Of a stretch of DNA of 64,000 nucleotides, positions 10,533 through 59,580 are shown piece after piece (the first letter of the stretch is position 1; each line of letters opens with the position of its first letter). The DNA lies in assembly GCA_964645975.1 (NCBI GenBank), contig CAZYAF010000005.1, positions 4,332 through 68,331 of the forward strand, in the 5' to 3' direction. The notes under the pieces were generated by a model, which was not told the origin of the DNA, ran no database searches, and saw only the letters and a list, made by a program, of their open reading frames with translations. This DNA comes from an uncultured Acidobacteriota bacterium. Its GTDB lineage: Bacteria > Acidobacteriota > B3-B38 > Guanabaribacteriales > CAZYAF01. The position numbers and the translations under genes were made by a program.

Positions 10533-11519
10533 TCATTCAAATGATTTATCAAACACAGTAACATTAGCTAAAATTTCATTTTGAAAAAAATGATTTAGTA
10601 CTTCTTCTCTTGGTGTCAAATCAACGGATCGATCCCAGAATTCCTGTAATGCTATTAAAGATGCTAAAAGAAAGTAGGTTTTACCGTTATTATTCCAAAG
10701 CACAGCTTTAAAAAGATAGGGTCTTTTGGCTTCTTTATCTCCCCTCTGGAGATAATATGTAAATGAGCCTTCACCAATTATAAAATCATCCTGTGACTCA
10801 ATTTTCTCTATCTCCATGTCAGTTATTGTCCAGGTTGTTCCACTTTTTGCTTTAAAAGAGTTCCCTTCAAAAAGCTGGCTATACATCCTAAACAAGTCTT
10901 CAGTTACTTCATTTTGCTGGTTATCCCACAGGAGTTCAACATATTTTTCTGAATCTGTTAATAGTATCCAGAGGGAACCATTATCTTCGGTCATACCATC
11001 AGGAAACCACTCAGGATCGTTAAATTCACTTGTTCGCCAGTTTTCAGGGACATAAAAGGAGAGATTGTATTCTTCAGAAACATATCTTTTTTGTAATTGT
11101 GGAAAATTTTGCATTTTTGCATCAGGATGACAGCTAATAGTTAATGTAATATCTTTTTGCAATTCTAACAGCTCTATCGGTGTTCCTCTACCAGTATTTA
11201 TATTACGATCTGCAATAAACTGGCGTTTGCTCTCCGGGCAATTCCATACAATAAATCTACTGCGGACATTCCCCTCATAAATAGTTCCGTCAATATAAAA
11301 GGCCCTATGGCCTGCAATCTCAATCAATCCGCCCCTATCACTAAGTGTAAAGGGCATATTGAATCCCCAAAATGAGAGCATTAACTTGCACACATAATCC
11401 ATGGTAAGATTCTCTTTTTCCTTCGTCAACGGACGCCAATAAACAAAATACATTAACCATTTATCCTGATATAGCTTGATTTGACCTCCCTCTGGAGAGC
11501 TTTGCTCCGAGATAAACAT
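10533..11519 (-). CDS. hypothetical protein; probable disrupted secreted protein (in-frame TAA separates it from an upstream signal peptide)
   Basis: 328-aa ORF; in the same frame upstream, ATG at 11648 encodes MKKLIVLIAVLCIGFTLLFSSDIFQK then TAA (11568..11570) then continues into this ORF. Confidence 0.45.
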   Translation of the reverse strand: MFISEQSSPEGGQIKLYQDKWLMYFVYWRPLTKEKENLTMDYVCKLMLSFWGFNMPFTLSDRGGLIEIAGHRAFYIDGTIYEGNVRSRFIVWNCPESKRQFIADRNINTGRGTPIELLELQKDITLTISCHPDAKMQNFPQLQKRYVSEEYNLSFYVPENWRTSEFNDPEWFPDGMTEDNGSLWILLTDSEKYVELLWDNQQNEVTEDLFRMYSQLFEGNSFKAKSGTTWTITDMEIEKIESQDDFIIGEGSFTYYLQRGDKEAKRPYLFKAVLWNNNGKTYFLLASLIALQEFWDRSVDLTPREEVLNHFFQNEILANVTVFDKSFE

Positions 11520-21855: not shown

Positions 21856-24800
21856 ATGTTAACAAAAAATTTTAGATCGTTAAGCTGCTTAGCAGTTGCA
21901 TTGTTAATCTTTTTTGTGTATGTAATTTCCGGATATGCCCAGGAGATCAATCCTGATTTGTACAAGCTGCTTAAGTATCGTTTTATCGGTCCTCAGGGTA
22001 ATCGTTTTATCGCAGTGGTTGGTGTTCCCGGTGATCCCAATATTTGCTATGCCGGAGCAGCATCAGGAGGAATATTCAAGAGCACTGACGGTGGTATTCA
22101 CTGGGAGCCAATTTTTGATGACCAACCGGCTGCTTCCATTGGCTCGCTGGCTATTGCTCCTTCGGATGCCAATATCATCTGGGCAGGAACGGGAGAAATA
22201 TCCATACGCAGCAACATCTCACAGGGAAACGGAATCTACAAATCCACTGATGCGGGAAAAACCTGGAAGCATATGGGTCTTACGAAAACTGGAAGGATTG
22301 GTAGGATAGTAATTCATCCTCATAATCCGGACATCGTCCTTGCTGCATCTATGGGTCACTGCTACGGGCCGCAACAGGAGCGAGGTGTGTTTCGAACCAC
22401 TGATGGAGGCAAAACCTGGGAAAGGGTACTTTTTGCGGACGAAGATACCGGCTGCTCAGATATCATCATGGACCCCAACAATCCTCGTATTCTATTTGCC
22501 GGCATGTGGCCCAAGAGGATATGGCCCTGGCTGGAGAGAAAGAGCGGCGGACCGGGTGGCGGTATCCACATGTCGAGAGACGGTGGCACAACCTGGAAGC
22601 ACCTCACAGGGGGCCTGCCGGAACCACCGATTGGTAAGATAGCCCTTGCCATGTCAAAAAGCAACTCCAACAGGGTCTACGCTTTGATTGAGCATAAAGA
22701 TGGAGTTCTGTGGAGATCGGATGATGGCGGCGAGAGCTGGAAATTGATCAACCGTCACCATGAGCTTACTCACAGACCATCGTATTACACCCGCTGTGCT
22801 GTGGTACCTGACGATTACAATGAGATATATTTTGTAGCCACAACCTTCAGTGTGTCCTATGACGGCGGCGAGACGTTTAAAATTGTACCTCGCAATCAGT
22901 CTCCGGGAGGTGACAACCATGATATGTGGATCGATCCCCTCCTGCCCGACCGAATGATGGTGGGCAACGATAATCCCTGTGTCAGCATATCTCTTAATGG
23001 TGGCAGAACATGGGATAGAGTCCGACTTCCAACTGCTCAGATGTATCATGTACATGTAGACAATAAAATCCCATATTTTGTCTATGGTAATCGTCAGGAC
23101 GGACCCTCCACCAGAGGACCCAGCAATAGCCTTACTGGAAGACATATTCCATCAGGATTGTGGCATTCAGTGGGCGGCTGCGAATGCGGCTTTGCTATAC
23201 CAGATCCGGTGGATAATAACATCGTCTGGTCAGGCTGCTACGAAGGGATACTTGATCGCTTTGATCTAATTACGGGGCATAGTAGATCAGTGAGCGTATG
23301 GCCTGATTCATGTATCGGCACCGAGGCAGCTCCATTGAAATATCGCTTTCAGTGGACTTTCCCCATTGTAATCTCACCCCATGATAATAATAAAGTATTT
23401 GTTGGCAGTCAATATGTCCATCAGACAACCGATGGCGGGCACAGCTGGAAAATTATCAGCCCCGATCTTTCTACCAACAACAAAAAATATCAACAGCCCT
23501 TTGGAGGTATCACTCGCGATGATGAAAGCACCTATTGCTGTTGTATTTTTGCTCTGGCTGAATCGCCCGTGGAAGAGGGACTAATCTGGGCAGGTACCAA
23601 TGACGGGCAGGTACAGGTGACAAGAGATGGAGGAGAACACTGGACCAATGTCACAAAAAATATACCTGATTTTCCGCCCATGGGCACGGTCAGCAACATA
23701 GAGCCATCTCGTTATAATGCTGGGACCTGTTATATCTCAGTGGACTTTCACAATGCCAACATTCGTGATCCCTACGCTTATAAAACGACCGACTATGGTA
23801 ATACATGGGAATTGATAACCAAAGATATTCCCAAAGGTGAATTAAGCTATGTTCACTGTATCAGGGAAGATGCGAAGAGGAAAGGACTCCTTTATCTGGG
23901 AACGGAAAATGCTGTCTATATCTCCTTTGATGACGGCGATCATTGGATGGCTTTACAAAATAACCTTCCCCATGCGCCGGTGCATTGGCTTGTTGTGCAG
24001 GAGCATTTCAATGATTTGGTAATTGGTACCTATGGCCGCGGTTTCTGGATCATGGACGATATTACTCCATTTCAGGGGCTCACATCAGCAGTACTCAAGT
24101 CAGACGTTCATCTCTTCAGTATTCGCCCTGCCTATCGTTTTCAAATGGTTTCAAACCCAATGGGCGAAGAAGATGACTTAAACCTTGGTGAGAACCCACC
24201 TTATGGAGCGTCAATCAATTACTATCTAAAGTCTGCTCCCCAGGGTGATGTCAAAATTTCTATTCTGAATGAGAACGGACAAAATATTAGGACACTTGAT
24301 GGAACAAAGAAAGCGGGCATCAACAGAGTATGGTGGGATTTACAATATGAAACCTTGGATGTGGCAAAGATAAGAACCAGCCCCATCGGAGAGCCGTGGG
24401 TAAAAGTAGGAGCAAAAGGATATCGAACCTTAGTTGGTGTTGGCGGTCCTCCCAGGGTTCTTGTTGCCCCCGGTGTCTATGCGGTAAAGCTTACAGTTAA
24501 TGGGAAAGAATTCACCCAGCAGCTCACCGTGGAAAAAGACCCAAATTCAGCTGGAAGTAAGGAAGATATTCAAAAACAAGTTAAAATGCTATTGGAAATC
24601 CGAGATGATTTTAATAAGCTGGTTAAGATGATTAATCAAGTGGAATGGGTCAGAAAACAGCTTTATGGTTTAATGGAGATTTTAAAAGATGATAAAAGAG
24701 GAGAAGAGATAATAAAAACGGGTAAAGAGCTGGATAAAAAATTTATAGACCTGGAGGAGAACTTTTTTCAGATGAGGCTCACTGATTCCGATAACGATAT

Positions 24801-25029
24801 CCTGCGCTGGCCCTGCAAACTGCATTACAAACTATCCTTTCTTGCTCAACGAGTGGCTCAAGCTGATTTTCCACCGACCACTCAGCAGATTGAAGTACAC
24901 AAAATGTTCAAAGAACAGTTAAGAAATCATCAAAGTCGTTTAAAAGAATTGATTGATAAAGACCTTGGTGCTTTTAACAATATGCTCAAAGAAAAAAATA
25001 TATCGAACATTATTATTCAAACACCTTGA
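21856..25029 (+). CDS. secreted BNR/Asp-box repeat beta-propeller protein (sortilin/Vps10-like), paralog 1
   Basis: 1057 aa; signal peptide; at least 10 Asp-box motifs (STDGGIHW, STDAGKTW, TTDGGKTW, SRDGGTTW, SDDGGESW, TTDGGHSW, TRDGGEHW and others). Confidence 0.7.
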   Translation: MLTKNFRSLSCLAVALLIFFVYVISGYAQEINPDLYKLLKYRFIGPQGNRFIAVVGVPGDPNICYAGAASGGIFKSTDGGIHWEPIFDDQPAASIGSLAIAPSDANIIWAGTGEISIRSNISQGNGIYKSTDAGKTWKHMGLTKTGRIGRIVIHPHNPDIVLAASMGHCYGPQQERGVFRTTDGGKTWERVLFADEDTGCSDIIMDPNNPRILFAGMWPKRIWPWLERKSGGPGGGIHMSRDGGTTWKHLTGGLPEPPIGKIALAMSKSNSNRVYALIEHKDGVLWRSDDGGESWKLINRHHELTHRPSYYTRCAVVPDDYNEIYFVATTFSVSYDGGETFKIVPRNQSPGGDNHDMWIDPLLPDRMMVGNDNPCVSISLNGGRTWDRVRLPTAQMYHVHVDNKIPYFVYGNRQDGPSTRGPSNSLTGRHIPSGLWHSVGGCECGFAIPDPVDNNIVWSGCYEGILDRFDLITGHSRSVSVWPDSCIGTEAAPLKYRFQWTFPIVISPHDNNKVFVGSQYVHQTTDGGHSWKIISPDLSTNNKKYQQPFGGITRDDESTYCCCIFALAESPVEEGLIWAGTNDGQVQVTRDGGEHWTNVTKNIPDFPPMGTVSNIEPSRYNAGTCYISVDFHNANIRDPYAYKTTDYGNTWELITKDIPKGELSYVHCIREDAKRKGLLYLGTENAVYISFDDGDHWMALQNNLPHAPVHWLVVQEHFNDLVIGTYGRGFWIMDDITPFQGLTSAVLKSDVHLFSIRPAYRFQMVSNPMGEEDDLNLGENPPYGASINYYLKSAPQGDVKISILNENGQNIRTLDGTKKAGINRVWWDLQYETLDVAKIRTSPIGEPWVKVGAKGYRTLVGVGGPPRVLVAPGVYAVKLTVNGKEFTQQLTVEKDPNSAGSKEDIQKQVKMLLEIRDDFNKLVKMINQVEWVRKQLYGLMEILKDDKRGEEIIKTGKELDKKFIDLEENFFQMRLTDSDNDILRWPCKLHYKLSFLAQRVAQADFPPTTQQIEVHKMFKEQLRNHQSRLKELIDKDLGAFNNMLKEKNISNIIIQTP

Positions 25030-25309: not shown

Positions 25310-28300
25310 ATGTATTCAAATAACAAATCGTTAACTCCCATCATATTGATTACTGCAATGACCTTCTTTATTGTTTTCGTAATCCCTTTTCACTGCAATG
25401 CCCAGGAGATTAATCCTGAATGGTTTAATCAGCTCAAATATCGTTTCATTGGCCCTCAGGGAAATCGTGTTATTGCGGTGGTTGGTGTTCCTGGAGACCC
25501 AGATGTTTATTACATTGGAGCAGCTTCGGGCGGTATATTTAAAAGCACTGATGGCGGAACTCATTGGAAATCCATTTTTGATGAGCAGCCTGTTTCTTCT
25601 GTTGGTTCTCTGGCAATTGCTCCCTCCGATCCCAATATCATCTGGGCAGGTACTGGTGAGACATTTATTCGCAGCAATATTTCTATCGGAAATGGCATAT
25701 ACAAATCCACTGATAGCGGAAAAACCTGGAAACTTATGGGCTTGGAAAAAACAGGGAGAATAGGCAGGATTATTATAGATCCCCATGACCCAAATATCGT
25801 ATTTGCTGCGGCGATGGGTCATTGCTACGGACCGCAAAAAGAGAGGGGAGTGTACCGCACTATTGATGGTGGCAAGACCTGGGAAAACGTCCTCTTTGTG
25901 GACGAAAACACTGGTTGTTCGGATATAGTTATGGATCCCAATAATCGACGGATTCTTTTTGCTGGCATGTGGCAATTGCAAATAAAGACCTGGGGAAGAG
26001 TGAGTGGCGGACCGGGCAGTGGACTTTATATGTCACGAGATGGTGGTGCTACCTGGAAAAAGCTCAACGATAACGGATTGCCGAAATCACCGATAGGAAA
26101 AATTGCATTGGCCATGTCGCCTGATAATTCCGAACGAATCTATGCTTTAATCGAAAGCGATGAGGGAGTACTCTGGAGGTCAGATGACGGAGGTGACAAC
26201 TGGAAAATGATCAACCATGATCATATGTTGACCCAGCGCCCTCATTATTATTCACGCTGTGCAGTGGCTCCGGATGACTACAATGAAATCTATTTTTGTG
26301 CTGTTCAACTCAGCATCTCTCTCGATGGCGGATTAACATTTAAAGGAGTACGATTGGTGGGTGGTGATAATCATGATATGTGGATCGATCCCCTTAATCC
26401 AGCCCGAATGGTTGTGGGCAACGATCAGGTTGTTGCCATCTCCGTTAATCGTGGTAAGTCATGGTTAGGAGTACCTCTTCCCATTTCTCAAATGTATCAT
26501 GTGGCCGTTGATAATCAAATACCTTATTATGTGTATGGAAACAGACAGGATGGCCCTTCTACCAGGGGGCCAAGCAACAGCTTAACCTATGGAGGGATTG
26601 CTTCTGGAATGTGGCATTCGGTGGGTGGCTGCGAGTGCGGATTTGCAATTCCTGACCCAGTGGATAATAATATCGTCTGGTCTGGTTGTTATGGAGGGTC
26701 GCTGGACCGTTTTGACCTACGAACAGGACATAGTCATAGAGTAAGTGCCTGGCCTGATAATCCTATGGGATGGCCGGCTGCTGATTTAAAATATCGCTTT
26801 CAGTGGACCTTCCCCATAGCAATATCACCCCATGATCATGACAAGGTATATATAGGCAGCCAATATGTACACCAGACAACCGATGGTGGCCATAGCTGGA
26901 AAATTATAAGCCCGGACCTTTCCACAAATGATAAAAGCAAACAACAAAGCTCAGGAGATATTACGCCAGATAACGCCAGCGTTGAATACTGCTGTCTAAT
27001 ATTTGCCCTGGTAGAATCTCCTGTCGAAGAAGGAGTTATATGGGCTGGTACCAATGATGGACTTGTTTGGGTTACTCGCAATGGCGGAGAAAATTGGACA
27101 AATGTCACTAAAAACATACCAAAACTTCCGCCCTGGGGGACAGTGAGCAATATAGAGCCATCGAGATATAATGCCGGTACCTGCTATATTACCATTGATT
27201 TTCATCAGGTTAACAATAGAGAGCCATATATTTATAAGACAGCTAATTACGGAAAGAGCTGGAAATTCATAAGTTCGGATATACCGAAGAGTGTATTAAG
27301 CTATGCTCACTGTATCCGCGAAGACCCGGTAAAAGAGGGATTGCTTTATCTGGGGACGGAAAATGCTCTGTATGTATCCTTTAATGATGGAGAAAATTGG
27401 CTGCCTTTACAGAGTAATTTACCGCATGCTCCCGTGCATTGGCTTGTTGTTCAGGAGCACTTCAATGATCTCGTGGTGGCCACCTACGGACGCGGTTTTT
27501 ATATACTTGATGACATAGCACCGCTTCAACAATTAAATAAAGATATTATTAATTCGGATGTTCATCTTTTTGCTCCACGGTCAGCATATCGTTTTCGATT
27601 TAAAGCAACTCCCATGAGCCAGCCAGGTGATCCATGTGCCGGAAAGAATCCTCCCTATGGTGCTTCTATGAACTACTATGTAAAATCAGAGCCGGAAGAA
27701 AAGGTAAAAATTACCATTCTAAATGAAAAAGGCGAAAAAATAAGAACTCTTGAAGGTACTAAAGAAGTGGGTATAAATCGTGTCTGGTGGGATTTACAAT
27801 ACGAGCCGATTAAAGAAGTTAAATTGAGAACAAGCCCGATTGGCTCACCTCATGTGAAAGTAGGAGAAAAAGGATGGAGACCTTTAGCCACATGGGGCGG
27901 AAAAATTAGCATTTTAGCTGCTCCTGGAACATATACAGTAAAGCTTGCCATAGGTGAAAAGGAATACAGCCAAAAGCTTACAGTTAAAAGGGATCCTAAT
28001 TCAACGGGAACCGAGGAAGACATTGAAGCTCAGACTGAGCTGTTGTTAGAAATTCGCAAGCATATTAACAATGTGGTAGAAATGATTAACCAAATTGAAT
28101 TAATCAGAAAACAGATTTATGATCTAAACGAACTACTGAAAGGGGAAGAAAATTCGGAAACACTCATTAAAGCGGGTAAAGCACTGGATAAGAAGTTTAT
28201 AGCTATAGAGGAAAATCTCATTCAAATGAAACTTACAGGAGCATGGCAGGATGCCTTGAGATGGCCCATTAAGCTCTATGCTAAGTTGAATAGTCTTGCT

Positions 28301-28486
28301 GGTGGTATAAGTAGTTCTGACTTTCCTCCAACTACACAGCAGATTGAAGTATATGAAGTGTTCAAAAGGAAGTTAGCAGAATATAAAAACAGCTACAAAG
28401 AATTACTTGATAAAGATTTTTCTAATTTTAATAATCTTCTAAGAGAAAAAAAATTACCGAATATTATTGCTGTTAAAAACCCTTAA
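25310..28486 (+). CDS. secreted BNR/Asp-box repeat beta-propeller protein (sortilin/Vps10-like), paralog 2
   Basis: 1058 aa; GAGGAGG RBS; roughly 75-80% identical to paralog 1 over the N-terminal region; same Asp-box series. Confidence 0.7.
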   Translation: MYSNNKSLTPIILITAMTFFIVFVIPFHCNAQEINPEWFNQLKYRFIGPQGNRVIAVVGVPGDPDVYYIGAASGGIFKSTDGGTHWKSIFDEQPVSSVGSLAIAPSDPNIIWAGTGETFIRSNISIGNGIYKSTDSGKTWKLMGLEKTGRIGRIIIDPHDPNIVFAAAMGHCYGPQKERGVYRTIDGGKTWENVLFVDENTGCSDIVMDPNNRRILFAGMWQLQIKTWGRVSGGPGSGLYMSRDGGATWKKLNDNGLPKSPIGKIALAMSPDNSERIYALIESDEGVLWRSDDGGDNWKMINHDHMLTQRPHYYSRCAVAPDDYNEIYFCAVQLSISLDGGLTFKGVRLVGGDNHDMWIDPLNPARMVVGNDQVVAISVNRGKSWLGVPLPISQMYHVAVDNQIPYYVYGNRQDGPSTRGPSNSLTYGGIASGMWHSVGGCECGFAIPDPVDNNIVWSGCYGGSLDRFDLRTGHSHRVSAWPDNPMGWPAADLKYRFQWTFPIAISPHDHDKVYIGSQYVHQTTDGGHSWKIISPDLSTNDKSKQQSSGDITPDNASVEYCCLIFALVESPVEEGVIWAGTNDGLVWVTRNGGENWTNVTKNIPKLPPWGTVSNIEPSRYNAGTCYITIDFHQVNNREPYIYKTANYGKSWKFISSDIPKSVLSYAHCIREDPVKEGLLYLGTENALYVSFNDGENWLPLQSNLPHAPVHWLVVQEHFNDLVVATYGRGFYILDDIAPLQQLNKDIINSDVHLFAPRSAYRFRFKATPMSQPGDPCAGKNPPYGASMNYYVKSEPEEKVKITILNEKGEKIRTLEGTKEVGINRVWWDLQYEPIKEVKLRTSPIGSPHVKVGEKGWRPLATWGGKISILAAPGTYTVKLAIGEKEYSQKLTVKRDPNSTGTEEDIEAQTELLLEIRKHINNVVEMINQIELIRKQIYDLNELLKGEENSETLIKAGKALDKKFIAIEENLIQMKLTGAWQDALRWPIKLYAKLNSLAGGISSSDFPPTTQQIEVYEVFKRKLAEYKNSYKELLDKDFSNFNNLLREKKLPNIIAVKNP

Positions 28487-35155: not shown

Positions 35156-35269
35156 TAATTTATCTCCTCATTTCAATCTTGATAAATTTGACAAAAAAAA
35201 TAGCCTCTTTTGGCTATTATATGAAAAATATTTAATCTTCTAAAAGATTTTATTAATTAGGGACTTTTC

Positions 35270-35830
35270 CTATTTATCTATTGTTATTACGTATCCTAGT
35301 TTTTCTAAAATTTCAATTGCTCTTTCTAAGGAACTTTGGTCAATTTTCCAGGCAAAAGATTTTGCTTTTTCCCTGATTTCTTCAGGAGTTATCGGTTTTC
35401 CTTCTTTATCAATGAAATAGTAAGCTTTTGCTGCTACAGATAAATCCATATAATCAATATTTCCTAACTGTTTCAATTCTGAGAAAAAATTTTTTATTCC
35501 ATTCCATTCATCTTTATATTTTTCTGCAATCCTTTTAGCTATCTTCTCTCCTGCTGGTGTTAATTCACAATCAAATCTTTTTCTTTCAAAACCATGGCTA
35601 TTGAAAATTCCGAGGTCTTCCTCTTTTTCATTGATTATTCCTATAGCGATTAAGTTTGATAATTCAATATTTATATCTGGCGAATAGGGACCGTAATAAT
35701 GTGGAATAAATCTCAAATCTAGACCTATATTTTTGTTAAGGAAATACATACATTTTTGCAGATATGTCTTCCCTTTGATATTGTTGTCATTTGCTAATAA
35801 TGCTAATAATATTAATTCATTAGCTTTCAT
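35270..35830 (-). CDS. Panacea (DUF4065/SocA)-like domain protein, translationally coupled to upstream HD-domain gene
   Basis: start set to ATG 35830 (MKANELILL) with AAAAAGGAG RBS; 11-nt overlap with HD gene stop; block TYLQKCMYFL...HYYGPYSPDI resembles Panacea domain core. Confidence 0.4.
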   Translation of the reverse strand: MKANELILLALLANDNNIKGKTYLQKCMYFLNKNIGLDLRFIPHYYGPYSPDINIELSNLIAIGIINEKEEDLGIFNSHGFERKRFDCELTPAGEKIAKRIAEKYKDEWNGIKNFFSELKQLGNIDYMDLSVAAKAYYFIDKEGKPITPEEIREKAKSFAWKIDQSSLERAIEILEKLGYVITIDK

Positions 35831-37154
35831 TAGCGACTCCTTTTTTATTTTTAAAATAATCACTTATTATATTATATATGATTTTATCATGTTTTTTATA
35901 CATTTTTTTCTTATCAACATTATCTTTATATTCTAAAGGAGCATAGCACTCTATAAATCTTTCTGACTTTTCTAAAATCTCATATAATTTAGATTCGTAT
36001 TTAATTTCTACTGGTTTGTCTGCTTTAACTACAAATAAATCAAGACCTTTATTTTTCTCGAAAATTCCCATAGAAATAATCTTTAAAATAACATCATTTT
36101 TATTTTCACTAATATTTCCAGCTATTTTATCTTCTAATTCTGCCTTTTCTTTTGTATCCATATTTTCTATTTGTAATCTTATATCTTCTTCGAAATTATT
36201 TATTTTTTGTGAAAAAACTCTTTTTAGCAATTTTCTATTGTAGAGATTGGAAAAGATTCTTCCGGCGTTAGTATTTTGATAATTTTCAAGTAATCTTATT
36301 GTTAATTTTTCGTCATTCCAATTTAAATATTCCTTCAAATATTCTGGTGAATCTTTGTAAATATAAATTTCTTTTAAAAAATCAATATTATCTACTTCAA
36401 CACCTAATTCAATTGCACGAACTATCATTGAATCAGTTATCAGTCTTACCTTATGCATATATACTTGAGAATCTATATAATATTTTGCTAAGAGAAATTG
36501 TTCAAAAGCTCTGATCCCATCTTCATGTATCATTAAAGAACGATCATATTTATCAATTGGTTCAGCTTTTATACTCTTGATAAGCTGATAATAATCATAA
36601 ATACCATATTTAACTCCGCAATGATAACTATCTCTTAGCAAGTAATCTATCTTATCTACATCTAAAGGTCCTGATATAATTTCTCGCAAATAACTTTCCT
36701 CATACCCTTCTTTTATTAAAGAAGAAATTGCTCTACATCTATTTTTTCCCAATATTCCGCACAATTCTTCATTTTGCTCTATTATTTTGCAAGTTATGGT
36801 TTCATGAAAATTGATTTTTCCGTGAATTCCTATATTTTCAGAAAGATTTTTCATAACCTCTTCTGATACATGAGAAAAAGGTCCATGACCTATATCATGC
36901 AATAATGCTGCAAATCGTAAGATTTCTTTTTTATCTTGGTCAATTTTTAGCTGTTCTGCAATTAATCCAGCTAAGTGCATAACCCCTAATGAATGCTCAA
37001 ATCTTGTATGATTTGCTCCGGGATAGACTAAATTTGCTAATGCTAACTGCTTGATTCTTTTTAATCTTTGAAATACTTCGGTGTCTATTATTTTTTGCTC
37101 AGTTTCATTAGGATGAATAAATCCATATATTGGATCACGAATATCAAATCTCAT
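35820..37154 (-). CDS. HD-domain phosphohydrolase, dGTPase/SAMHD1-like dNTP triphosphohydrolase family
   Basis: 444 aa; HTRFEHSLGV, LLHDIGHGPFSH and DVDKIDYLLRD motifs characteristic of dNTPase-type HD proteins. Confidence 0.7.
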   Translation of the reverse strand: MRFDIRDPIYGFIHPNETEQKIIDTEVFQRLKRIKQLALANLVYPGANHTRFEHSLGVMHLAGLIAEQLKIDQDKKEILRFAALLHDIGHGPFSHVSEEVMKNLSENIGIHGKINFHETITCKIIEQNEELCGILGKNRCRAISSLIKEGYEESYLREIISGPLDVDKIDYLLRDSYHCGVKYGIYDYYQLIKSIKAEPIDKYDRSLMIHEDGIRAFEQFLLAKYYIDSQVYMHKVRLITDSMIVRAIELGVEVDNIDFLKEIYIYKDSPEYLKEYLNWNDEKLTIRLLENYQNTNAGRIFSNLYNRKLLKRVFSQKINNFEEDIRLQIENMDTKEKAELEDKIAGNISENKNDVILKIISMGIFEKNKGLDLFVVKADKPVEIKYESKLYEILEKSERFIECYAPLEYKDNVDKKKMYKKHDKIIYNIISDYFKNKKGVANES

Positions 37155-37227
37155 AATATTTTTCTAAAAAAATATTTCATATCAACATATAAACAATTTC
37201 ACCATATTTCAGTCTAAAATAATATAA

Positions 37228-38019
37228 TTATTTTTTAATCTCATCTAAATTGATTTTCATTCCATCGCGGGCGGCTATGACTTTTACTCCGAGGCTTTTC
37301 TGTAATTGTGCCGCCAGTTCCCACGGTTTGGCGCGAAGCATGGTCATGCCGAAGTGAGTGAGCACTGCTAACTTAGGTTTTACTTCAGAAATTATCTTCT
37401 CGGCATCAGCAAATTTCAGATGGTCAATATCGCGTTTAACCGCACCGTCAGGCTCATATCTGACAACATTAAGGATAAGCACATCACCGCGATAATACTG
37501 TGTGAGCTCCGGGAAGAATCGTGTATCAGCTACATGCGATATCGTTCCTCCCGAGTATCGAATGTTCAAGCCATAAGTCTCTACGGAATGTATATGGCGG
37601 AGGGGAGTAGAAAATGTAATCCTACCTAATTCATACTCCTTACCTTCGTGCAGCATAACAATTTCCTCAACAAATCCCTGAAGATACTTGTAGACCACTC
37701 CTTCCTCACCCAAAGCATCTGCAGGTAAAAAGAGCTTGCCACGTTTGTTGAAACCTCCATTAGTCATAGCTTCGATCATGATATTTATATCGCCGGAGTG
37801 ATCCAAATGCTTATGAGTAAGGATAATGCCTTTTAATTTAGCTGGATCAAGGCGAGGCCGACTGGAGGTACAGCGTACAAGAGAACCAGGTCCAGGATCA
37901 ACTATGAAGTCACTCCCATCCAAGCTATACCATAATCCCCCTGAGGCACGCGCCTGCCGGCTTACAACAATACGGGCTCCTGCTGTACCCAAAAATTTTA
38001 TAAAGTTTTTATCATTCAT
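37228..38019 (-). CDS. MBL-fold metallo-hydrolase
   Basis: 263 aa; THKHLDHSGD metal-binding motif. Confidence 0.65.
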   Translation of the reverse strand: MNDKNFIKFLGTAGARIVVSRQARASGGLWYSLDGSDFIVDPGPGSLVRCTSSRPRLDPAKLKGIILTHKHLDHSGDINIMIEAMTNGGFNKRGKLFLPADALGEEGVVYKYLQGFVEEIVMLHEGKEYELGRITFSTPLRHIHSVETYGLNIRYSGGTISHVADTRFFPELTQYYRGDVLILNVVRYEPDGAVKRDIDHLKFADAEKIISEVKPKLAVLTHFGMTMLRAKPWELAAQLQKSLGVKVIAARDGMKINLDEIKK

Positions 38020-38920: not shown

Positions 38921-39910
38921 ATGAGTAAAAATAAGATTTCCCGCAGGGATTTTATGCTGCTCAGCTCAGCAGCTGTTTTAAACAGGTGGGAAAACAACAA
39001 CATTTTCCAAGAAAATAAAAAAATAAGATTAACAAAAACATCTGTTTTTATAAAAGTTCTTGGTACTGCTCAGGATGGAGGCTTACCACAGGCCGGATGT
39101 TACTGTGCTCATTGCTTAAAAGCAAGGAAGAATAAAGATTTTCGCCGTTTTGTCAGTTCAGTAGCTGTTATTAATAAAAAAAGAAATCAAATATATTTAA
39201 TAGATGCAACCCCTGACATTCGCGAACAAATCGACCTCCTTTTTCTGCCGCATGAATTTCAGAAGCGGGGAAAAAGAAATCCAATAGATGCACTTCTCTT
39301 AACCCACGGGCATACTGGACATTACAGCGGTTTGGTTCATCTCGGCAGGGAAGCCGCAGGTGTCAAAGGTTTAAGTGTATATTGCACCCATAGTATGGGA
39401 GGTTTTCTTGATAAGAATGGTCCATGGAGTCTAATGGTGCAGCTTGAGAATATAAATTTGAAATGTTTCGAGGTAAATAAAACTATCAAATTGGATGAAG
39501 AGATAAGCTTTAGAGCAATACCCGTACCCCATCGTGCTGAATTTACTGATACAGTTGCTTTCGAAATAATTGGTCCCCAGAAAAGATTATTATATTTGCC
39601 GGATATAGATCGATGGGAACTGGTAGAACAGGAAATAAGAGAGCTTCTATCAAAAGTGGATTATGCTATGCTGGATGGGACTTTTTTTTCTGCTGATGAG
39701 CTTCCTGGAAGAAATATGTCACAGGTTCCTCACCCCTTAATACCTCATTCTATTGAGCTTTTTAAGGATATAGCGAGCAAAAAGAAGGGCTCTATTTTCT
39801 TTATCCATTTAAATCACACGAATAAACTTTTGAGTGACGATAAAGCGCGCGGTTTAATAAGACAACAGGGATTTGAAATTGCAGATGAGAGGATGGAATT
39901 AATCATTTAG
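38921..39910 (+). CDS. MBL-fold metallo-hydrolase (PqqB-like) with twin-arginine signal peptide
   Basis: 329 aa; SRRDFMLLSSAAV Tat motif; LLTHGHTGHYSG metal-binding motif. Confidence 0.6.
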   Translation: MSKNKISRRDFMLLSSAAVLNRWENNNIFQENKKIRLTKTSVFIKVLGTAQDGGLPQAGCYCAHCLKARKNKDFRRFVSSVAVINKKRNQIYLIDATPDIREQIDLLFLPHEFQKRGKRNPIDALLLTHGHTGHYSGLVHLGREAAGVKGLSVYCTHSMGGFLDKNGPWSLMVQLENINLKCFEVNKTIKLDEEISFRAIPVPHRAEFTDTVAFEIIGPQKRLLYLPDIDRWELVEQEIRELLSKVDYAMLDGTFFSADELPGRNMSQVPHPLIPHSIELFKDIASKKKGSIFFIHLNHTNKLLSDDKARGLIRQQGFEIADERMELII

Positions 39911-55658: not shown

Positions 55659-57452
55659 TTACAGGCTCTTTTTTATATTCTCGGCAGGTTTCTTACCAAG
55701 GAGCTGGCTGAGCTCTTCCAGACTGGCTTCCCTTATTTTTTTAATTGAACCGAAGTGTTTGAGCAAAAGTTCCTTTCGCTTAGTACCAATACCAGGGACG
55801 TTGTCAAGCTCCGAGACAATGGTACGCTTTTTTCGTAGTTTGCAATGGTACGCATGGGCGAAGCGATGCGATTCATCTCGAATCCGTTGTATCAGCCGCA
55901 GCGCTTCCGAGCCCTCTTGCAGCTTCAACGGTTCCTTTACTGTAGAGGCATAGAGTATCTCCTCCCGTTTGGCAATGGCTGCTGTGGGCATATTCTCCAA
56001 TCCCAATGCTGTCAGTACATCCCGTGCAGCCGAGAGCTGCCCTTTGCCGCCATCAAGCAGCACCATATCAGGCAGTGCCTTCTCCTCGCGCAACAGCCGC
56101 TTATAACGTCGCGAAACCACCTCGGCCATGGAGGCAAAGTCATCCAGTCCCTTCACTCCCTTTATCTTAAACCTGCGATAATCCGCTTTCTTGGCTTTGC
56201 CATCCTCAAACACCACCAATGAGGCTACCGCATCGGTGCCCGAAATGTTCGAGATATCAAAGGCCTCAATCCTCCTCGGTAGTTCGGGCAAATTCAACGC
56301 CTGCTTAAGCGCATACAGCACGCCTTCTCCCTCTTCAATAGCAAACTTATTGCGAAAAGATATCCGAGCATTATCCAGTGCCAACTGCAAAAGCTTCCGC
56401 TTCTTTCCCCGGCTGGGCGAGGTGATGTACACCCGATTTCCGCGCAAACGTGTTAACCATTGCTCCAGCAGCGGTCGCTCCTCAAAATCGAGCTGCACGT
56501 ATATTTTCGGTGGGATGGGCTGATCCCCATTGTAATATTGTTTGATCATGGAGCTGATGAATTCCTCAGGCTGAAAATCCACCAGCCCTTTCCAGAAGAA
56601 CTCACGCCGTCCTACTACCAGACCCTTGCGTATATGAAAGACCTGCAAGCACACCTTATCAGCCAGATGATAGAAGCCGAAGAGGTCCTCCTCTTCCATT
56701 CGAGTGGAAGCCATGCGCTGCTTGCTGGCCTGCCGCTCCAGCACTTTGATGGCATCCCGATAGTGCGCCGCCTTTTCGAATTTCTCCTCACCCGATGCTT
56801 TCTCCATCTTCAGCTTAAGTCGTTCAAGTAATTCCCTGTTCTTGCCTTCTAACAGAAGCCGCACATCCTCAACCGCTGCTTCATACTCCTCTTCGGTTGT
56901 CAGCGCCGCACACGGTGCCAGACAGCGGTTAATCTGGTAATCGAGGCAGGGGGTGAAGCGTTTACCCGGCAGTTTCAAGTCGCACTGCCTGAGCTGCATA
57001 TGGCGGGCAATAAGGCGCATGGTCTTGCGAGCCAGGCTGGCCGGGATATAAGGCCCGAAATAGAGCGCTCCATCCTTTTTCACCCGGCGCACTAACCGAA
57101 CTCGCGGATAGAGCTCGTTGATGCTCAACCGCAGATAGGGGAAGTTTTTATCATCCCGCAGCCGAACATTATATTTGGGCTGTTCCTTTTTTACCAGGTT
57201 GTTCTCCAGAATGAGGGCTTCCAGCTCGCTTTCGGTGATGATGAATTCGATATCAGCCGCCTCGCTGAGCATGGTTTCCTGCTTGATGGGAGCTTCGCCC
57301 GGTGCTTGAAAATAGGAGCGTACCCGATGGCGCAAGGATTGAGCTTTGCCAATATATATGGCCTTTTCCAGTGCATCTTTAAATATGTAAACGCCGGGTT
57401 TTAGGGGGAAAGATTCGACCTTTTTTTTGAGGGTATCCAGGATGTTATTCAT
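55659..57452 (-). CDS. uvrC: excinuclease ABC subunit C
   Basis: 597 aa; N-terminal GIY-YIG (PGVYIFKD...IYIGKA) and C-terminal helix-hairpin-helix; start overlaps uvrB stop by 1 nt (TAATG). Confidence 0.9.
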   Translation of the reverse strand: MNNILDTLKKKVESFPLKPGVYIFKDALEKAIYIGKAQSLRHRVRSYFQAPGEAPIKQETMLSEAADIEFIITESELEALILENNLVKKEQPKYNVRLRDDKNFPYLRLSINELYPRVRLVRRVKKDGALYFGPYIPASLARKTMRLIARHMQLRQCDLKLPGKRFTPCLDYQINRCLAPCAALTTEEEYEAAVEDVRLLLEGKNRELLERLKLKMEKASGEEKFEKAAHYRDAIKVLERQASKQRMASTRMEEEDLFGFYHLADKVCLQVFHIRKGLVVGRREFFWKGLVDFQPEEFISSMIKQYYNGDQPIPPKIYVQLDFEERPLLEQWLTRLRGNRVYITSPSRGKKRKLLQLALDNARISFRNKFAIEEGEGVLYALKQALNLPELPRRIEAFDISNISGTDAVASLVVFEDGKAKKADYRRFKIKGVKGLDDFASMAEVVSRRYKRLLREEKALPDMVLLDGGKGQLSAARDVLTALGLENMPTAAIAKREEILYASTVKEPLKLQEGSEALRLIQRIRDESHRFAHAYHCKLRKKRTIVSELDNVPGIGTKRKELLLKHFGSIKKIREASLEELSQLLGKKPAENIKKSL

Positions 57453-59449
57453 TAATCTACAAACAGCTCAATGGCTTTTCTTTTAAGTTCTTTAATGCGG
57501 TCTCGAAGCTGAGCGGCGCGCTCAAATTCCAGCTTTTTTGCCGCATCTTGCATTTCCTTATCCAGTTTTTTGATGAGCTGGCGCCGTTCCTCGCTGGTCA
57601 GATATTCCTCTCGCTCCTCAGCGGCCATGGGTATTTCATAATAATCCGCTTCGTATACGCTGGTAAGGACATCCTTGATGGATTTCTTAATGGTCTCCGG
57701 GGTTATGTTATGAGCTTTGTTGTATTCTATCTGAATCTGGCGGCGGCGATTGGTCTCGTCTATGGTCTGTTTAATTGAATTGGTGAGATTATCGGCGTAA
57801 AGCACTACCTGACCATTAACGTTGCGGGCTGCTCGACCGGATGTCTGGATTAGGGAAATGGTGGAACGCAGGAATCCCTCCTTATCGGCATCGAGAATAG
57901 CCACTAGCGAGACCTCAGGTAGATCCAGACCCTCACGCAGGAGATTGATTCCGATAAGGACGTCGAAGTCGCCGCGGCGGAACTCGCGGATAATCTTGAC
58001 CCGGTCCAGGGTATCAATGTCGGAATGGAGATAGCGTACCTTAACGCCGAGCTCCTCATAATATTCCGTCAGGTCTTCGGCCATGCGCTTGGTGAGGGTA
58101 GTGACCAGCACTCGCTCTTTTTGCTCCGCTCTCTCACGGATGCGCTGCAGCAGGTCGTCCACCTGGTTCTGTGCCGGCTGGATGATTATCTCCGGGTCAA
58201 TGAGGCCGGTTGGTCGAATTACCTGCTCCACTACTTCGCCACCAGTCTTCTCCAACTCGTAAGGACCGGGAGTGGCTGAGACGTAAATAATCTGCTTCGC
58301 CCGCTCCTTGAACTCTACGAATTTCAGCGGGCGGTTGTCCAGTGCCGACGGAAGGCGGAAACCGTATCTCACCAGGGTGGACTTGCGGGAATGGTCGCCC
58401 TCGTACATGCCGCGCAGTTGGGGGATGGTAACGTGGCTTTCATCTATTACAATGAGGGCATCACGCGGAAGATAGTCCAGCAAACAGGGCGGCGGCTCTC
58501 CCGGCTTTCGGCCGGTGAGGTGGCGCGAGTAGTTTTCGATGCCCTGGCAGTAGCCGATCTCCTTCATCATCTCCAGGTCGTAGAGGGTGCGCTCGCGGAT
58601 GCGCTGAGCTTCTACCAGCTTGTTCTCTTTGAGCAATTTTTTATGGTGCACCTCCAGCTCTTCGCGAATGGACTGAAGGGCGCTGCGCATTTGTTCCTCG
58701 GGTGTAACATAATGGGATTTGGGGTAGATGGGCACCCGTTGGACTTCTTCCCTCACCTTGCCGGTGAGAGGGTCCACCAGCCTGAGGTGGTCAATCTCGT
58801 CACCGAAGAGCTCGATGCGCACGGCTTCGTCGGCATAGGGTGGGAAGACTTCAACCACATCGCCGCGCACGCGGAAGGTGCCGCGCCCGAAGCTCATGTC
58901 GTTGCGCTCGTACTGTATGTTCACCAGCTTGTGCAATATCTCCCGGCGAGAGATCTCCATGCCGTGTTCCAGCAGGAGCAGCATGCCGTAGTAGGCTTCC
59001 GGAGAGCCCAGGCCGTAGATGCATGAGACGCTGGCCACGATGAGCACATCGCGGCGCTCGAAGAGGGCGCGGGTGGCGGAGTGGCGCATGCGGTCGATTT
59101 CGTCGTTGATGTCGGCATCCTTGGCAATGTAGGTGTCTGTGGCGGGTACGTAGGCTTCGGGCTGGTAGTAGTCGTAGAAGCTGACGAAGTATTCAACTGC
59201 GTTCTGCGGGAAGAAGCTCTTGAACTCCTGATAAAGCTGAGCAGCCAGGGTCTTGTTGTGGGAGATGACGATGGTGGGGAGCCTGACCTGCTCCACCACC
59301 TTGGCCACGGTGAAGGTCTTGCCCGAGCCAGTGACGCCCAGCAGCACCTGATGCTGCTTGCCTTGCAGCACTCCCCGGGCTAACTCCTCGATAGCCGTGA
59401 CCTGGTCGCCTTTGGGCTCAAACTCCGAGATAAGCTTAAATTCACTCAT
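57452..59449 (-). CDS. uvrB: excinuclease ABC subunit B
   Basis: start set to ATG 59449 ([16 protein letters not shown]); Walker [13 protein letters not shown]-like helicase motifs, C-terminal UVR domain; upstream 45 codons of track ORF are non-homologous. Confidence 0.9.
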
Positions 59450-59580
59450 GGTTATTAAACAAAACAGTACCAAAAAACAGTAATAAATTGTAGTACAGGA
59501 TGAAATAATAGTCAATTTAGCAATAAATGATAATAATATAAAAAACGATATAAGAATTTTAATTAATAAACGGGAAGATA

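What the first reader, a model, noticed from the sequence alone, without database searches (positions are those of the whole stretch)
35270..37154. HD-domain dNTPase-like gene translationally coupled to a Panacea-like partner: candidate toxin-antitoxin or dNTP-depletion defense pair
The 444-aa protein carries HD-domain motifs (H...HD...D) plus DxxDYLLRD, the hallmark of dGTPase/SAMHD1-type dNTP triphosphohydrolases; bacterial members of that family have been reported as anti-phage dNTP-depleting enzymes. Its stop overlaps by 11 nt the start of a 187-aa ORF whose core (TYLQKCMYFL...HYYGPYSPDI) resembles the Panacea/DUF4065 antitoxin domain. The partner has its own AAGGAG RBS inside the HD gene. 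The pair is markedly AT-rich relative to the flanking aminopeptidase and MBL genes. I do not know of an HD-dNTPase paired with a Panacea domain as an established module.
Basis: partly seen in the sequence, partly recalled or inferred. Interest (0 to 1): 0.7.

Follow-up and report, generated by a model that had tools for sequence, protein, structure and literature searches.

The report
SAMHD1-like enzyme with antitoxin-like partner
Two overlapping genes encode a likely DNA-building-block-degrading enzyme (a relative of human SAMHD1) and a small protein resembling the toxin-blocking part of known antitoxins; the pair is kept together in hundreds of bacteria and archaea, has been listed once as a prediction, and has never been tested.

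Summary
A 444-aa HD gene (35820-37154, minus strand) overlaps by 11 nt a 186-aa gene (35270-35830) that has its own AAGGAG. Together they are the most AT-rich genes in the window.

The HD protein is a SAMHD1/EF1143/YdhJ-type phosphohydrolase, not a Dgt-type dGTPase. All catalytic and substrate-contact residues are conserved.

The pairing is close to obligate:
- 75 of 77 informative partner-seeded loci have the HD gene directly upstream.
- 11 of 11 HD-seeded loci of this HD subfamily have the partner directly downstream.
- 46 of 69 junctions overlap.
- One locus is an in-frame fusion.
- Seven loci have a broken HD gene and an intact partner.

Flanks are unrelated and mostly housekeeping, and no plasmid or phage copies were found. 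A toxin-antitoxin-like, protein-gated dNTPase is therefore the best reading. An anti-phage role is unproven.

Kurata et al. 2022 already list untested HD(YdhJ)-Panacea pairs, so this is a divergent, widespread member of a predicted kind.

The parts
35820..37154 (-). HD gene, 444 aa: SAMHD1/EF1143/YdhJ-type HD phosphohydrolase and probable dNTP triphosphohydrolase; the candidate 'toxin' or effector
   Evidence: Pfam HD 6.7e-19 and HD_assoc_2 2.7e-19, both above their cut-offs. PDB sequence hits: 2hek 1.5e-49, 2q14 2.6e-38, EF1143 (2o6i) 1.3e-31, SAMHD1 about 4e-27. Residues invariant across 28 partner-linked homologs include R51, H86, D87, H90, H95, H117, E118, D165, D167, K168, Y171, D175 and H234.
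35270..35830 (-). Partner gene, 186 aa: two-domain protein (N-terminal winged helix with the invariant YYGPYS motif, a helical linker, and a C-terminal helical/winged-helix-like domain with LSxAAK). It is homologous to the DarG C-terminal toxin-binding domain and is a divergent branch of the Panacea superfamily; the candidate 'antitoxin' or regulator
35820..35830 (-). 11-nt overlap between the HD stop (TAA, 35822..35820) and the partner start (ATG, 35830..35828): a translational-coupling junction
   Evidence: Read directly from the sequence. The junction type is conserved: 46 of 69 related loci overlap (-4 in 25, -14 in 8, -11 in 7) and 22 have gaps of 0-30 nt.
35837..35842 (-). AAGGAG Shine-Dalgarno sequence for the partner, 6 nt upstream of its ATG and inside the HD coding sequence
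   Evidence: Sequence. GGAGG-like motifs sit at the same place in related loci (output).
35189..35218 (-). Terminator-like hairpin plus T-run, about 50 nt after the partner stop: the probable 3' end of the two-gene operon
   Evidence: Consensus scan: AATAGCCAAAAGAGGCTATT followed by TTTTTTGTCA. Two such sites were found in the region against 1.0 expected, so this is weak evidence on its own.
37155..37227 (-). 73-nt AT-rich intergenic region between the upstream MBL-fold gene and the HD start, carrying promoter-like hexamers (TTGATA-16-AAAAAT at 37185..37158)
   Evidence: The number of promoter-like sites in the region is not above the shuffled expectation (17 against 15.2), so an own promoter is inferred only.

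Best explanation
This is an autonomous two-gene operon in which the two proteins work as a physical pair.

The upstream gene makes a SAMHD1/EF1143-type HD triphosphohydrolase. It most likely hydrolyses dNTPs to deoxynucleoside plus triphosphate.

The downstream gene is translationally coupled to it. It makes a protein of the Panacea/DarG-C-terminal-domain superfamily, whose characterised members (PanA, the DarG C-terminal domain) bind their cognate toxin directly and block it.

The most likely mechanism is that the partner binds the HD enzyme roughly stoichiometrically and keeps it inactive, or prevents its assembly or allosteric activation. Loss or displacement of the partner (by proteolysis, translation shut-off or a phage cue) would free the enzyme, which would then drain the dNTP pool and stop DNA replication. 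That makes it a PanAT-type toxin-antitoxin-like module with a dNTPase as effector.

Shown here: the family assignments, the conserved catalytic residues, the near-obligate adjacency and overlap, a natural fusion, and HD decay with the partner retained.

Inferred: dNTP substrate, physical binding, inhibition, toxicity, and any trigger or anti-phage role.
For: HD identity and intact active site.

The DarG C-terminal domain binds and inhibits DarT (PMC13621843, PMC12170906, both citing Deep et al. 2023). PanA antitoxins form complexes with their toxins, and their GPV motif is critical (PMC8832971). Here an invariant GPY lies in register with it.

Bridge to Panacea:
- Seven partner-like ORFs downstream of other HD clades hit the window family at hhalign 99.1% (E 1.2e-18).
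- The same seven hit a validated PanA clade at 74.6% (E 2.7e-5).
- One of them, L107, passes the PF13274 gathering score: 30.3 bits against 25.7.

Coupling:
- The HD gene is directly upstream in 75 of 77 informative partner-seeded loci from many bacterial and archaeal phyla.
- All 11 HD-seeded loci scoring >=424 bits with room downstream carry the partner. Of 54 loci with HDs scoring <=280 bits, 47 do not.
- 46 of 69 junctions overlap.
- L033 is an in-frame HD-partner fusion of 650 codons.
- There is no conserved third gene: 252 flanking ORFs fall into 240 clusters.

Toxin-like asymmetry: seven loci have a truncated, frameshifted or stop-interrupted HD gene with an intact partner, including the cultured Syntrophomonas and Desulfofundulus isolates. 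Two loci have the partner alone. No locus has an intact subfamily HD without the partner.

In one of the two HD-less loci (L041) the partner sits beside an anti-phage dCTP deaminase, the other known dNTP-depleting effector.

The window copy has the lowest GC of 42 genes.

Precedent for restrained dNTPases: Clover CloA/CloB (PMC12265719).

The same architecture is listed as predicted PanAT cluster T34.
Against: - No experiment exists for any HD-Panacea pair; Kurata's T34 rows are marked 'notest'.
- SAMHD1-like enzymes such as EF1143 are allosterically self-regulated housekeeping enzymes and are not known to be toxic.
- Immediate neighbours in 116 flanks are mostly housekeeping genes (CTP synthase, MurJ, SAM synthetase, aminotransferases). 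Only a handful are defence-type: UvrD/GajB-like in 2, type I S subunit in 2, McrBC in 1.
- The partner is absent from 72,556 plasmids and 50,697 phage records, and appears in only 5 of 2.9 million viral contigs. The module therefore does not look especially mobile.
- The toxin-decay asymmetry is biased by ascertainment, because the large survey was seeded with the partner. The HD-seeded sample has only 11 loci.
- Some HD disruptions in MAGs could be assembly errors.
- The partner's domains are winged-helix-like, so a DNA-binding role is not excluded.
Confidence: 0.55

Rival explanations
1. Housekeeping enzyme plus regulatory or adaptor subunit. The HD protein is a dNTP-pool or nucleotide-sanitising enzyme. 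The partner is a non-toxic accessory subunit, for example an allosteric modulator, a targeting factor for DNA or the replisome, or a SocA-like proteolytic adaptor that sets enzyme level. There is no addiction and no immunity function.
For: - Flanking genes are mostly core metabolism, and there is no defence-island signature.
- The module is essentially absent from plasmids and phages.
- The pair has deep, vertical-looking spread across many phyla and has co-diversified: the HD subfamily is separated from the rest by 424 against 280 bits.
- JGI labels relatives 'uncharacterized protein YwgA'. From its systematic name, B. subtilis ywgA lies next to ywfO, an HD phosphohydrolase discussed as a nucleotide-sanitising enzyme (PMC4993169). 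That adjacency comes from my own knowledge of the nomenclature and was not tested here.
- SocA, a Panacea protein, acts as a ClpXP adaptor.
Against: - The window copy is compositionally foreign.
- Context is completely unconserved around an invariant pair.
- HD repeatedly decays while the partner is retained.
- Every characterised relative of the partner (PanA, DarG C-terminal domain) is a toxin neutraliser.
- Housekeeping EF1143-type HD genes of Enterococcus, Listeria and Staphylococcus have no such partner.
Confidence: 0.3
2. The partner is simply a winged-helix transcription factor that autoregulates the operon, or regulates other genes, and does not act on the HD protein.
Against: - Regulators are normally not translationally coupled downstream of their target with 4-14 nt overlaps in 46 of 69 loci, and are not fused in frame to it.
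- The invariant YYGPYS and LSxAAK motifs are shared with toxin-binding domains, not with PadR or MarR.
- This reading does not exclude dual function, which is common for type II antitoxins.
Confidence: 0.07
3. The HD enzyme is not a dNTPase. It acts on another phosphoester substrate, such as ribonucleotides, (p)ppGpp-like alarmones, RNA 5'-triphosphate ends, cyclic or linear oligonucleotide signals, or nucleic acid. The pair would then be a toxin-antitoxin or signalling module with a different target.
For: - The closest solved relatives (2hek Aquifex, 2q14 Bacteroides) are structural-genomics entries without assigned activity.
- The HD superfamily is chemically diverse (PMC8177086, listed).
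- YwfO-like proteins have been proposed as RNA 5'-triphosphate or modified-NTP pyrophosphohydrolases (PMC4993169).
- SAMHD1 itself binds single-stranded nucleic acids (PMC7854603).
Against: The residues that in SAMHD1 bind the triphosphate and the deoxyribose/base and perform catalysis are all conserved and invariant in the subfamily: R164, H167, H206, D207, H210, H215, D311, K312, Y315, D319, the HE dyad and H376. EF1143, which shares this residue set, is a proven dNTPase (reference cited).
Confidence: 0.15

Closest known systems
Predicted PanAT cluster pT33/T34 of Kurata et al. 2022 (PMC8832971, Dataset S1): 'HD domain-containing protein' (CDD YdhJ) followed by a DUF4065/Panacea protein in Ammonifex, Desulfofundulus thermocisternus and Caldicellulosiruptor
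   Same: Same architecture: a YdhJ/COG1078-type HD gene first and a small Panacea-type gene second, overlapping by 0 to 17 nt. The genus Desulfofundulus also appears in my survey (L017).
   Different: Those pairs were found with the PF13274 HMM. The window partner and 82 of 83 core relatives are invisible to it. I could not test whether T34 belongs to the same clade or to the intermediate clade. T34 was never tested experimentally ('notest'). The family here is much larger: 237 species hits with a strict motif, and 345 clusters at E<=1e-30, 936 at E<=1e-10 and 3,492 at E<=1e-3. It also includes archaea.
DarG antitoxin C-terminal domain (M. tuberculosis DarTG, PDB 7YK3)
   Different: There is no macrodomain and no DarT neighbour. 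The window protein is far below the NCBIfam DarG cut-off, at 23 bits against 250. The cognate enzyme is an HD hydrolase, not an ADP-ribosyltransferase.
Panacea/DUF4065 antitoxins (PanA, SocA; PF13274)
   Same: Same superfamily through intermediates. The signature helix LQKxxYF and the GP[VY] motif are in register. The locus is a two-gene TA-like pair with varied 'toxin' partners.
   Different: The PF13274 model is not matched. The motif is GPY rather than GPV. There is an extra C-terminal domain, as in DarG. The gene order is toxin first, the less common arrangement (325 against 943 in Kurata et al.).
SAMHD1 / EF1143 dNTP triphosphohydrolases
   Same: HD plus HD_assoc_2 architecture; metal ligands, HE dyad and substrate-contact residues conserved; residues matching the SAMHD1 allosteric-site positions D137 and Q142 are present.
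   Different: There is no SAM domain. R145 is replaced by K. It forms a separate subfamily (>=424 bits against <=280 bits for other clades) with its own conserved C-terminal YAP motif. It is always encoded with a protein partner, which SAMHD1 and EF1143 lack.
Clover defence system (CloA dNTPase + CloB nucleotidyltransferase; PMC12265719)
   Same: A two-gene system in which a dNTPase effector is restrained by the product of a partner gene, to avoid self-toxicity.
   Different: In Clover the restraint is a small nucleotide (p3diT) made by an NTase. Here the partner has no enzyme domain and would act as a protein inhibitor. No defence phenotype is known for the present pair.
Single-gene anti-phage dGTPase / dCTP deaminase (Tal et al. 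2022; PADLOC dGTPase, dCTPase)
   Same: The proposed outcome is the same: dNTP depletion. One HD-less locus (L041) places the partner next to a dCTP deaminase.
   Different: The window HD matches the dGTPase models only over the shared HD core (residues 20-109), far below cut-off. Those systems have no protein partner.

Membership tests
SAMHD1/EF1143/YdhJ-type HD dNTP triphosphohydrolase | HD domain (PF01966) plus the HD-associated C-terminal region (PF19276), both above the Pfam cut-offs | tested here: met
   HD 68.7 bits against a cut-off of 22; HD_assoc_2 69.9 bits against 23.1.
SAMHD1/EF1143/YdhJ-type HD dNTP triphosphohydrolase | Metal-binding H...HD...D plus catalytic and substrate residues (SAMHD1 R164, H167, H206, D207, H210, H215, H233/E234 dyad, D311, K312, Y315, D319, H376) | tested here: met
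   Aligned residues are R51, H54, H86, D87, H90, H95, D167, K168, Y171, D175 and H234. All are invariant in 28 subfamily members except H54, which is at least 90% conserved. H117-E118 is also invariant. Equating H117/E118 with the SAMHD1 dyad rests on the 2q14 and 2hek alignments and is an inference.
SAMHD1/EF1143/YdhJ-type HD dNTP triphosphohydrolase | Significant full-length sequence similarity to enzymes of proven dNTPase activity | tested here: met
   EF1143 (2o6i/3irh/4lrl) E 1.3e-31 over residues 5-288. SAMHD1 about 4e-27 in two stretches covering residues 5-97 and 153-420.
SAMHD1/EF1143/YdhJ-type HD dNTP triphosphohydrolase | dNTP to deoxynucleoside + triphosphate activity; oligomerisation and allosteric activation | not testable with these tools
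   Requires biochemistry. Only the allosteric-site-like residues D24 and Q29 (K32 in place of R145) could be noted.
Dgt-type dGTPase / anti-phage dGTPase (TIGR01353, NF041026, PADLOC dGTPase) | Full-length match above the curated cut-off | tested here: not met
   TIGR01353 41.4 bits against 152.35. NF041026 28.7 bits against 400. The matches cover only residues 20-141. PADLOC dGTPase covers residues 20-109 only.
Pfam PF13274 SocA_Panacea (DUF4065) | Match to the family HMM at or above the gathering score (25.7 bits) | tested here: not met
   The window protein gives no hit at E<=1. None of 28 homologs hits at E<=10. Five of 90 sequences hit at E<=1, and four of those are the distant intermediates.
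Panacea superfamily (remote homology) | Profile-profile or transitive homology to bona fide PF13274 proteins, with the signature motifs in register | tested here: met
   The direct comparison of A1 against a PanA clade is inconclusive: prob 18%, P 1.3e-3, with LQKxxYF and GP[VY] aligned. Through intermediates the link holds: 99.1% (E 1.2e-18) to A1 and 74.6% (E 2.7e-5) to the PanA clade. Intermediate L107 scores 30.3 bits on PF13274, above the gathering score.
Panacea superfamily (remote homology) | GPV motif critical for neutralisation | tested here: inconclusive
   An invariant G47-P48 is followed by Y, giving YYGPYS. The position is equivalent in the alignments, but the functional equivalence is untested.
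DarG antitoxin | C-terminal DarT-binding domain fold | tested here: met
DarG antitoxin | N-terminal macrodomain (ADP-ribosylglycohydrolase) and an adjacent DarT gene | tested here: not met
   The protein is 186 aa and matches only positions 185-329 of the NCBIfam DarG model, at 23.1 bits against a cut-off of 250. The neighbour is an HD gene.
Type II toxin-antitoxin module (PanAT-like) | Two adjacent co-directional genes, no more than 100 nt apart, with the architecture conserved across species (criteria of Kurata et al.) | tested here: met
   75 of 77 informative loci are paired. 68 of 69 junctions lie between -56 and +30 nt.
Type II toxin-antitoxin module (PanAT-like) | The toxin is growth-inhibitory, the antitoxin neutralises it, and the two form a complex | not testable with these tools
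   Only indirect hints are available: a natural fusion in L033, and HD genes decayed while the partner is retained in 7 loci.
Anti-phage defence system | Enrichment next to known defence genes (defence islands) and/or on mobile elements | tested here: not met
   Among 116 immediate neighbours only a few are defence-type (GajB/UvrD-like 2, type I S subunit 2, McrBC 1, ResIII 2); the rest are housekeeping. There are 0 plasmid hits, 0 phage hits and 5 IMG/VR contigs. Only the +/-1 gene was scanned, so a weaker enrichment cannot be excluded.
Clover (CloA/CloB) | The partner is a Pol-beta-type nucleotidyltransferase that makes an inhibitory nucleotide | tested here: not met
   The partner has no NTase domain in Pfam, NCBIfam or PADLOC, and its fold is winged-helix/helical.

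The most novel reading that the evidence does not exclude
A widespread immune or addiction module of bacteria and archaea that has never been tested. A SAMHD1-type dNTPase is kept off by a dedicated protein inhibitor of the DarG-C-terminal-domain/Panacea fold, possibly by nucleic-acid mimicry at the enzyme's allosteric or oligomerisation surface. It is unleashed when the inhibitor is lost during infection. This would be the first protein-antitoxin-gated dNTP-depletion system, and a prokaryotic model for how SAMHD1-like enzymes can be switched by binding partners.
Probability: 0.25. Interest if true: 0.8.

Novelty: new member of a known kind. Interest (0 to 1): 0.55.

Why it matters
dNTP depletion is a shared antiviral strategy of animals (SAMHD1) and bacteria (dGTPase, dCTP deaminase, Clover). 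How cells keep such enzymes from harming themselves is an open question.

This locus belongs to a large, Pfam-invisible family in which a SAMHD1-type enzyme is almost never found without a small protein related to toxin-blocking antitoxin domains. The family has hundreds of 50%-identity clusters and spans many bacterial phyla and several archaeal lineages.

If the partner is a direct inhibitor, three things follow:
- It would be a new regulatory solution for dNTPases.
- The known reach of the Panacea/DarG-type antitoxin fold would extend well beyond what PF13274-based surveys see.
- There would be a simple two-gene system for studying the control of SAMHD1-like enzymes.

If the partner is instead a housekeeping subunit, it would assign a first function to the YwgA-like proteins.

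Tried and rejected
- Direct Pfam test for DUF4065 on the window protein and 28 homologs: negative.
- hhalign of the family against a single validated PanA (phage phi52237 YP_863932): prob 1.2%, uninformative. Against a 35-sequence PanA clade: only 18% and 13.6%. The link was obtained only through intermediates.
- The PanA clade profile found nothing in the PDB, so the literature statement that DUF4065 resembles the DarG C-terminal domain could not be reproduced directly with that narrow profile.
- AFDB Foldseek was unavailable. BFVD viral fold hits were uninformative Sulfolobus-virus and PadR-like proteins.
- A profile search of the 5.8-billion-protein set at E<=10 listed only close family members, with no Pfam labels and no fusions.
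- Literature searches for YwgA and YwfO gave no functional study.
- I looked for flanking direct repeats or insertion scars around the pair. Only low-complexity AT matches turned up. Promoter-like hits were not above chance.
- I tested whether the core Firmicutes EF1143-type HD genes carry the partner, using three mislabelled 'phage' records that look like host DNA. None does. The B. subtilis ywfO-ywgA link could therefore not be verified here.
The source organism of the window was not identified: JGI sample 3300008516, no taxon name.
- Rejected: a Dgt-type dGTPase assignment; membership in DarG (no macrodomain); a Clover-like NTase partner.
Full report
**1. Observation**

The ORF list and the sequence confirm every descriptive statement.
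- A 444-aa ORF runs 35820..37154 on the minus strand and ends in TAA at 35822..35820.
- A 186-aa ORF starts at ATG 35830..35828 and ends at 35270.
- The two overlap by 11 nt.
- AAGGAG lies at 35842..35837, 6 nt before that ATG.

The pair is compositionally distinct. The HD gene has GC 0.270 and GC3 0.169, the lowest of 42 genes in the window. The partner has GC 0.292. The other genes average 0.395 (sd 0.047), and the two flanking genes are 0.402 and 0.442.

A terminator-like hairpin follows the partner at 35218..35199 plus a T-run. No insertion scars were found.

**2. The HD protein**

Pfam gives HD (6.7e-19) and HD_assoc_2 (2.7e-19).

Against solved structures the best matches are the following:
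- Aquifex 2hek, 1.5e-49
- Bacteroides 2q14, 2.6e-38
- the proven dNTPase EF1143, 1.3e-31
- many SAMHD1 entries, about 4e-27

The alignments place R51, H54, H86-D87, H90, H95, D167, K168, Y171, D175 and H234 on SAMHD1 residues R164, H167, H206-D207, H210, H215, D311, K312, Y315, D319 and H376. These residues and an H117-E118 pair are invariant, or in the case of H54 at least 90% conserved, in 28 partner-linked homologs.

Dgt-type and anti-phage dGTPase models match only the shared HD core and fall far below their cut-offs. The enzyme is therefore a SAMHD1/EF1143/YdhJ(COG1078)-type hydrolase with an intact active site. Its dNTP specificity is inferred, not shown.

**3. The partner protein**

It has no PF13274 hit, even at E<=10, in the window protein and 28 homologs. 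None of its relatives carries any precomputed Pfam domain. JGI labels several of them 'uncharacterized protein YwgA'.

It does match known antitoxin-related models weakly: the C-terminal part of DarG in PADLOC and NCBIfam, and candidate PDC-M19A.

A family profile hits the DarG C-terminal domain in the DarTG complex (7yk3_B) at E 5.3e-5.

An AF2 model with pLDDT 93.4 matches 7yk3 over its whole length:
- Foldseek: E 1.6e-5, prob 1.0, TM 0.62-0.64

In DarG this domain binds DarT and inhibits it directly (citing Deep et al. 2023). A 2026 paper states that DUF4065 proteins are homologous to this domain (PMC13621843).

**4. Link to Panacea**

The direct profile-profile comparison with a validated PanA clade (phage phi52237 PanA and 34 relatives, all PF13274-positive) is sub-threshold. 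It gives prob 18% and P 1.3e-3. It does align the LQKxxYF helix and the GP[VY] motif in register. Kurata et al. report that the GPV motif is critical for neutralisation.

The HD-seeded metagenome scan supplied intermediates. These are seven ORFs of 172-195 aa lying directly downstream of more distant HD clades.
- As a group they match the window family at hhalign 99.1% (E 1.2e-18, 165 columns).
- They match the PanA clade at 74.6% (E 2.7e-5, 90 columns).
- One of them, L107, passes the PF13274 gathering score (30.3 bits against 25.7), and three others are sub-threshold.

The partner is thus a divergent branch of the Panacea/DarG-C-terminal-domain superfamily. It is not a PF13274 member.

**5. 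Conservation of the pair**

Partner-seeded survey. A motif-seeded scan of one genome per species found 237 species with a partner relative. The 80 best come from Acidobacteriota, Planctomycetota, Bacillota (Moorella, Syntrophomonas, Desulfofundulus), Desulfobacterota, Chloroflexota, Omnitrophota, Nitrospirota and others. Archaea are also represented (Methanoperedens, ANME-2c, Thermoplasmata).

Together with two metagenome contexts, 77 loci have enough upstream DNA to judge. In 75 of them an HD homolog lies directly upstream on the same strand.

Junctions are tight:

| Junction type | Loci (of 69) |
|---|---|
| Overlap, total | 46 |
| – overlap of 4 nt | 25 |
| – overlap of 14 nt | 8 |
| – overlap of 11 nt | 7 |
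| Gap of 0-30 nt | 22 |
| Gap of more than 30 nt | 1 |

L033 is an in-frame HD-partner fusion.

HD-seeded survey:

| HD score against the subfamily profile | Loci with room downstream | With partner | Without |
|---|---|---|---|
| >=424 bits | 11 | 11 | 0 |
| <=280 bits | 54 | 7 (distant partner-like ORF only) | 47 |

EF1143-type genes of Enterococcus, Listeria and Staphylococcus have no partner.

The partner-linked HD proteins are therefore a distinct subfamily that has co-diversified with the partner. The family has 345, 936 and 3,492 representative clusters at E<=1e-30, 1e-10 and 1e-3.

**6. Context and mobility**

- The 252 flanking ORFs fall into 240 clusters, so there is no conserved third gene.
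- Immediate neighbours are mostly housekeeping genes, with a few defence-type genes.
- The partner is absent from the plasmid and phage collections.
- It occurs on 5 IMG/VR contigs, 3 of them with an HD gene upstream.

So the unit is autonomous, but there is no defence-island or mobile-element signature. Only the window copy's foreign composition suggests transfer.

**7. Hints of toxin-like behaviour**

Seven loci have a truncated, internally deleted, frameshifted or stop-interrupted HD gene with an intact partner. These are L007, L010, L012, L013, L017, L023 and L034, and three of them are cultured isolates.

Two loci have the partner alone. One of them, L041, places it beside a type III methyltransferase and a frameshifted anti-phage dCTP deaminase, the other known dNTP-depleting effector.

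No intact subfamily HD without a partner was seen. This asymmetry fits an antitoxin-like partner. It rests on a partner-seeded survey plus only 11 HD-seeded loci.

**8. Comparison with known systems and verdict**

Kurata et al. 2022 Dataset S1 already lists an untested predicted PanAT cluster (pT33/T34). It consists of an 'HD domain-containing protein' (CDD YdhJ) followed by a DUF4065 protein, in thermophilic Firmicutes. The pairing is therefore catalogued but uncharacterised.

Clover shows that defence dNTPases can need a restraining partner. There the restraint comes from an enzyme-made nucleotide rather than a protein.

My best explanation is a protein-gated, PanAT-like dNTPase module, at confidence 0.55. 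The main rival is a housekeeping enzyme with a regulatory subunit, at 0.3.

The novelty is moderate. It is a divergent, very widespread, Pfam-invisible member of a predicted and untested kind.

Noticed in passing
window 59581-63528 (- strand): A 1315-aa ORF with very low GC (0.296, GC3 0.182) carries a 'novel STAND NTPase 5' domain (PF25199, 1.4e-11). Its stop overlaps by 4 nt the start of the high-GC uvrB (57452-59584) and uvrC (55659-57452) genes. It looks like a second compositionally foreign, possibly immunity-type (STAND/Avs-like) gene in the window.
   Followed up: partly
L041 (Bryobacteraceae MAG JASHSD010000636.1) 224-5122: The partner homolog has no HD gene here. It follows a type III DNA methyltransferase, an anti-phage dCTP deaminase (PADLOC dCTPase, 6.5e-87 and 7.2e-41) split by a frameshift, and an unannotated 172-aa ORF. 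It is a single case, but it links this antitoxin-like protein to the other dNTP-depleting defence enzyme.
   Followed up: partly
L033 (Acidobacteriaceae MAG CAWBDA010000003.1) 4621-6570: HD and partner are fused in one 650-codon reading frame with no stop between them, a natural 'Rosetta stone' fusion. I did not check whether this is a sequencing error.
   Followed up: partly
L010, L012 (Syntrophomonas isolates), L017 (Desulfofundulus australicus), L007, L013, L023, L034: The HD genes are internally deleted, N-terminally truncated, frameshifted or interrupted by an in-frame stop, while the downstream partner is intact. L017 also has a second, unpaired HD homolog 4 kb downstream at 9853-10866.
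   Followed up: partly
L107, L126, L143, L145, L157, L158, L172 (metagenome contigs): Other clades of SAMHD1-like HD genes (<=280 bits to the subfamily profile) also have a 172-195 aa Panacea-like ORF directly downstream. The HD-Panacea association therefore spans more than one HD clade.
   Followed up: yes
L061 5332-6393: The ORF immediately downstream of the partner in this acidobacterial locus gives a marginal hit (E 8.8e-4, 18 bits, in a set of about 9,500 ORFs) to the PanA-clade profile. It may be a second Panacea-like gene or may be chance.
   Followed up: no
window 37228-38019 (- strand): The MBL-fold gene directly upstream of the HD gene carries a weak precomputed hit to PF23023 Anti-Pycsar_Apyc1 beside Lactamase_B. 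This is most likely just the shared metallo-beta-lactamase fold. A second MBL-fold gene lies at 38921-39910.
   Followed up: no
window 21856-25029 and 25310-28486 (+ strand): Two adjacent paralogous proteins of about 1,057 aa with Sortilin-Vps10/BNR repeats. They are unrelated to the finding.
   Followed up: no
phage-collection records OR846738.1, OR846587.1, OR844990.1 (L174-L176): These records are labelled 'UNVERIFIED_ORG ... phage' from wastewater. They carry EF1143/YwfO-type HD genes in what looks like host chromosomal context, and are unannotated contigs of up to 214 kb. They are probably host DNA rather than phage, so phage-collection hits to HD proteins should be read with care.
   Followed up: partly
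L005 (ENA ERZ21830300 ctg589364l) 6573-8740: In this context the pair is followed on the opposite strand by McrBC and a McrB-like AAA_5 ATPase, and preceded by CTP synthase overlapping the HD start. This is one of the few loci with a restriction-type neighbour.
   Followed up: no
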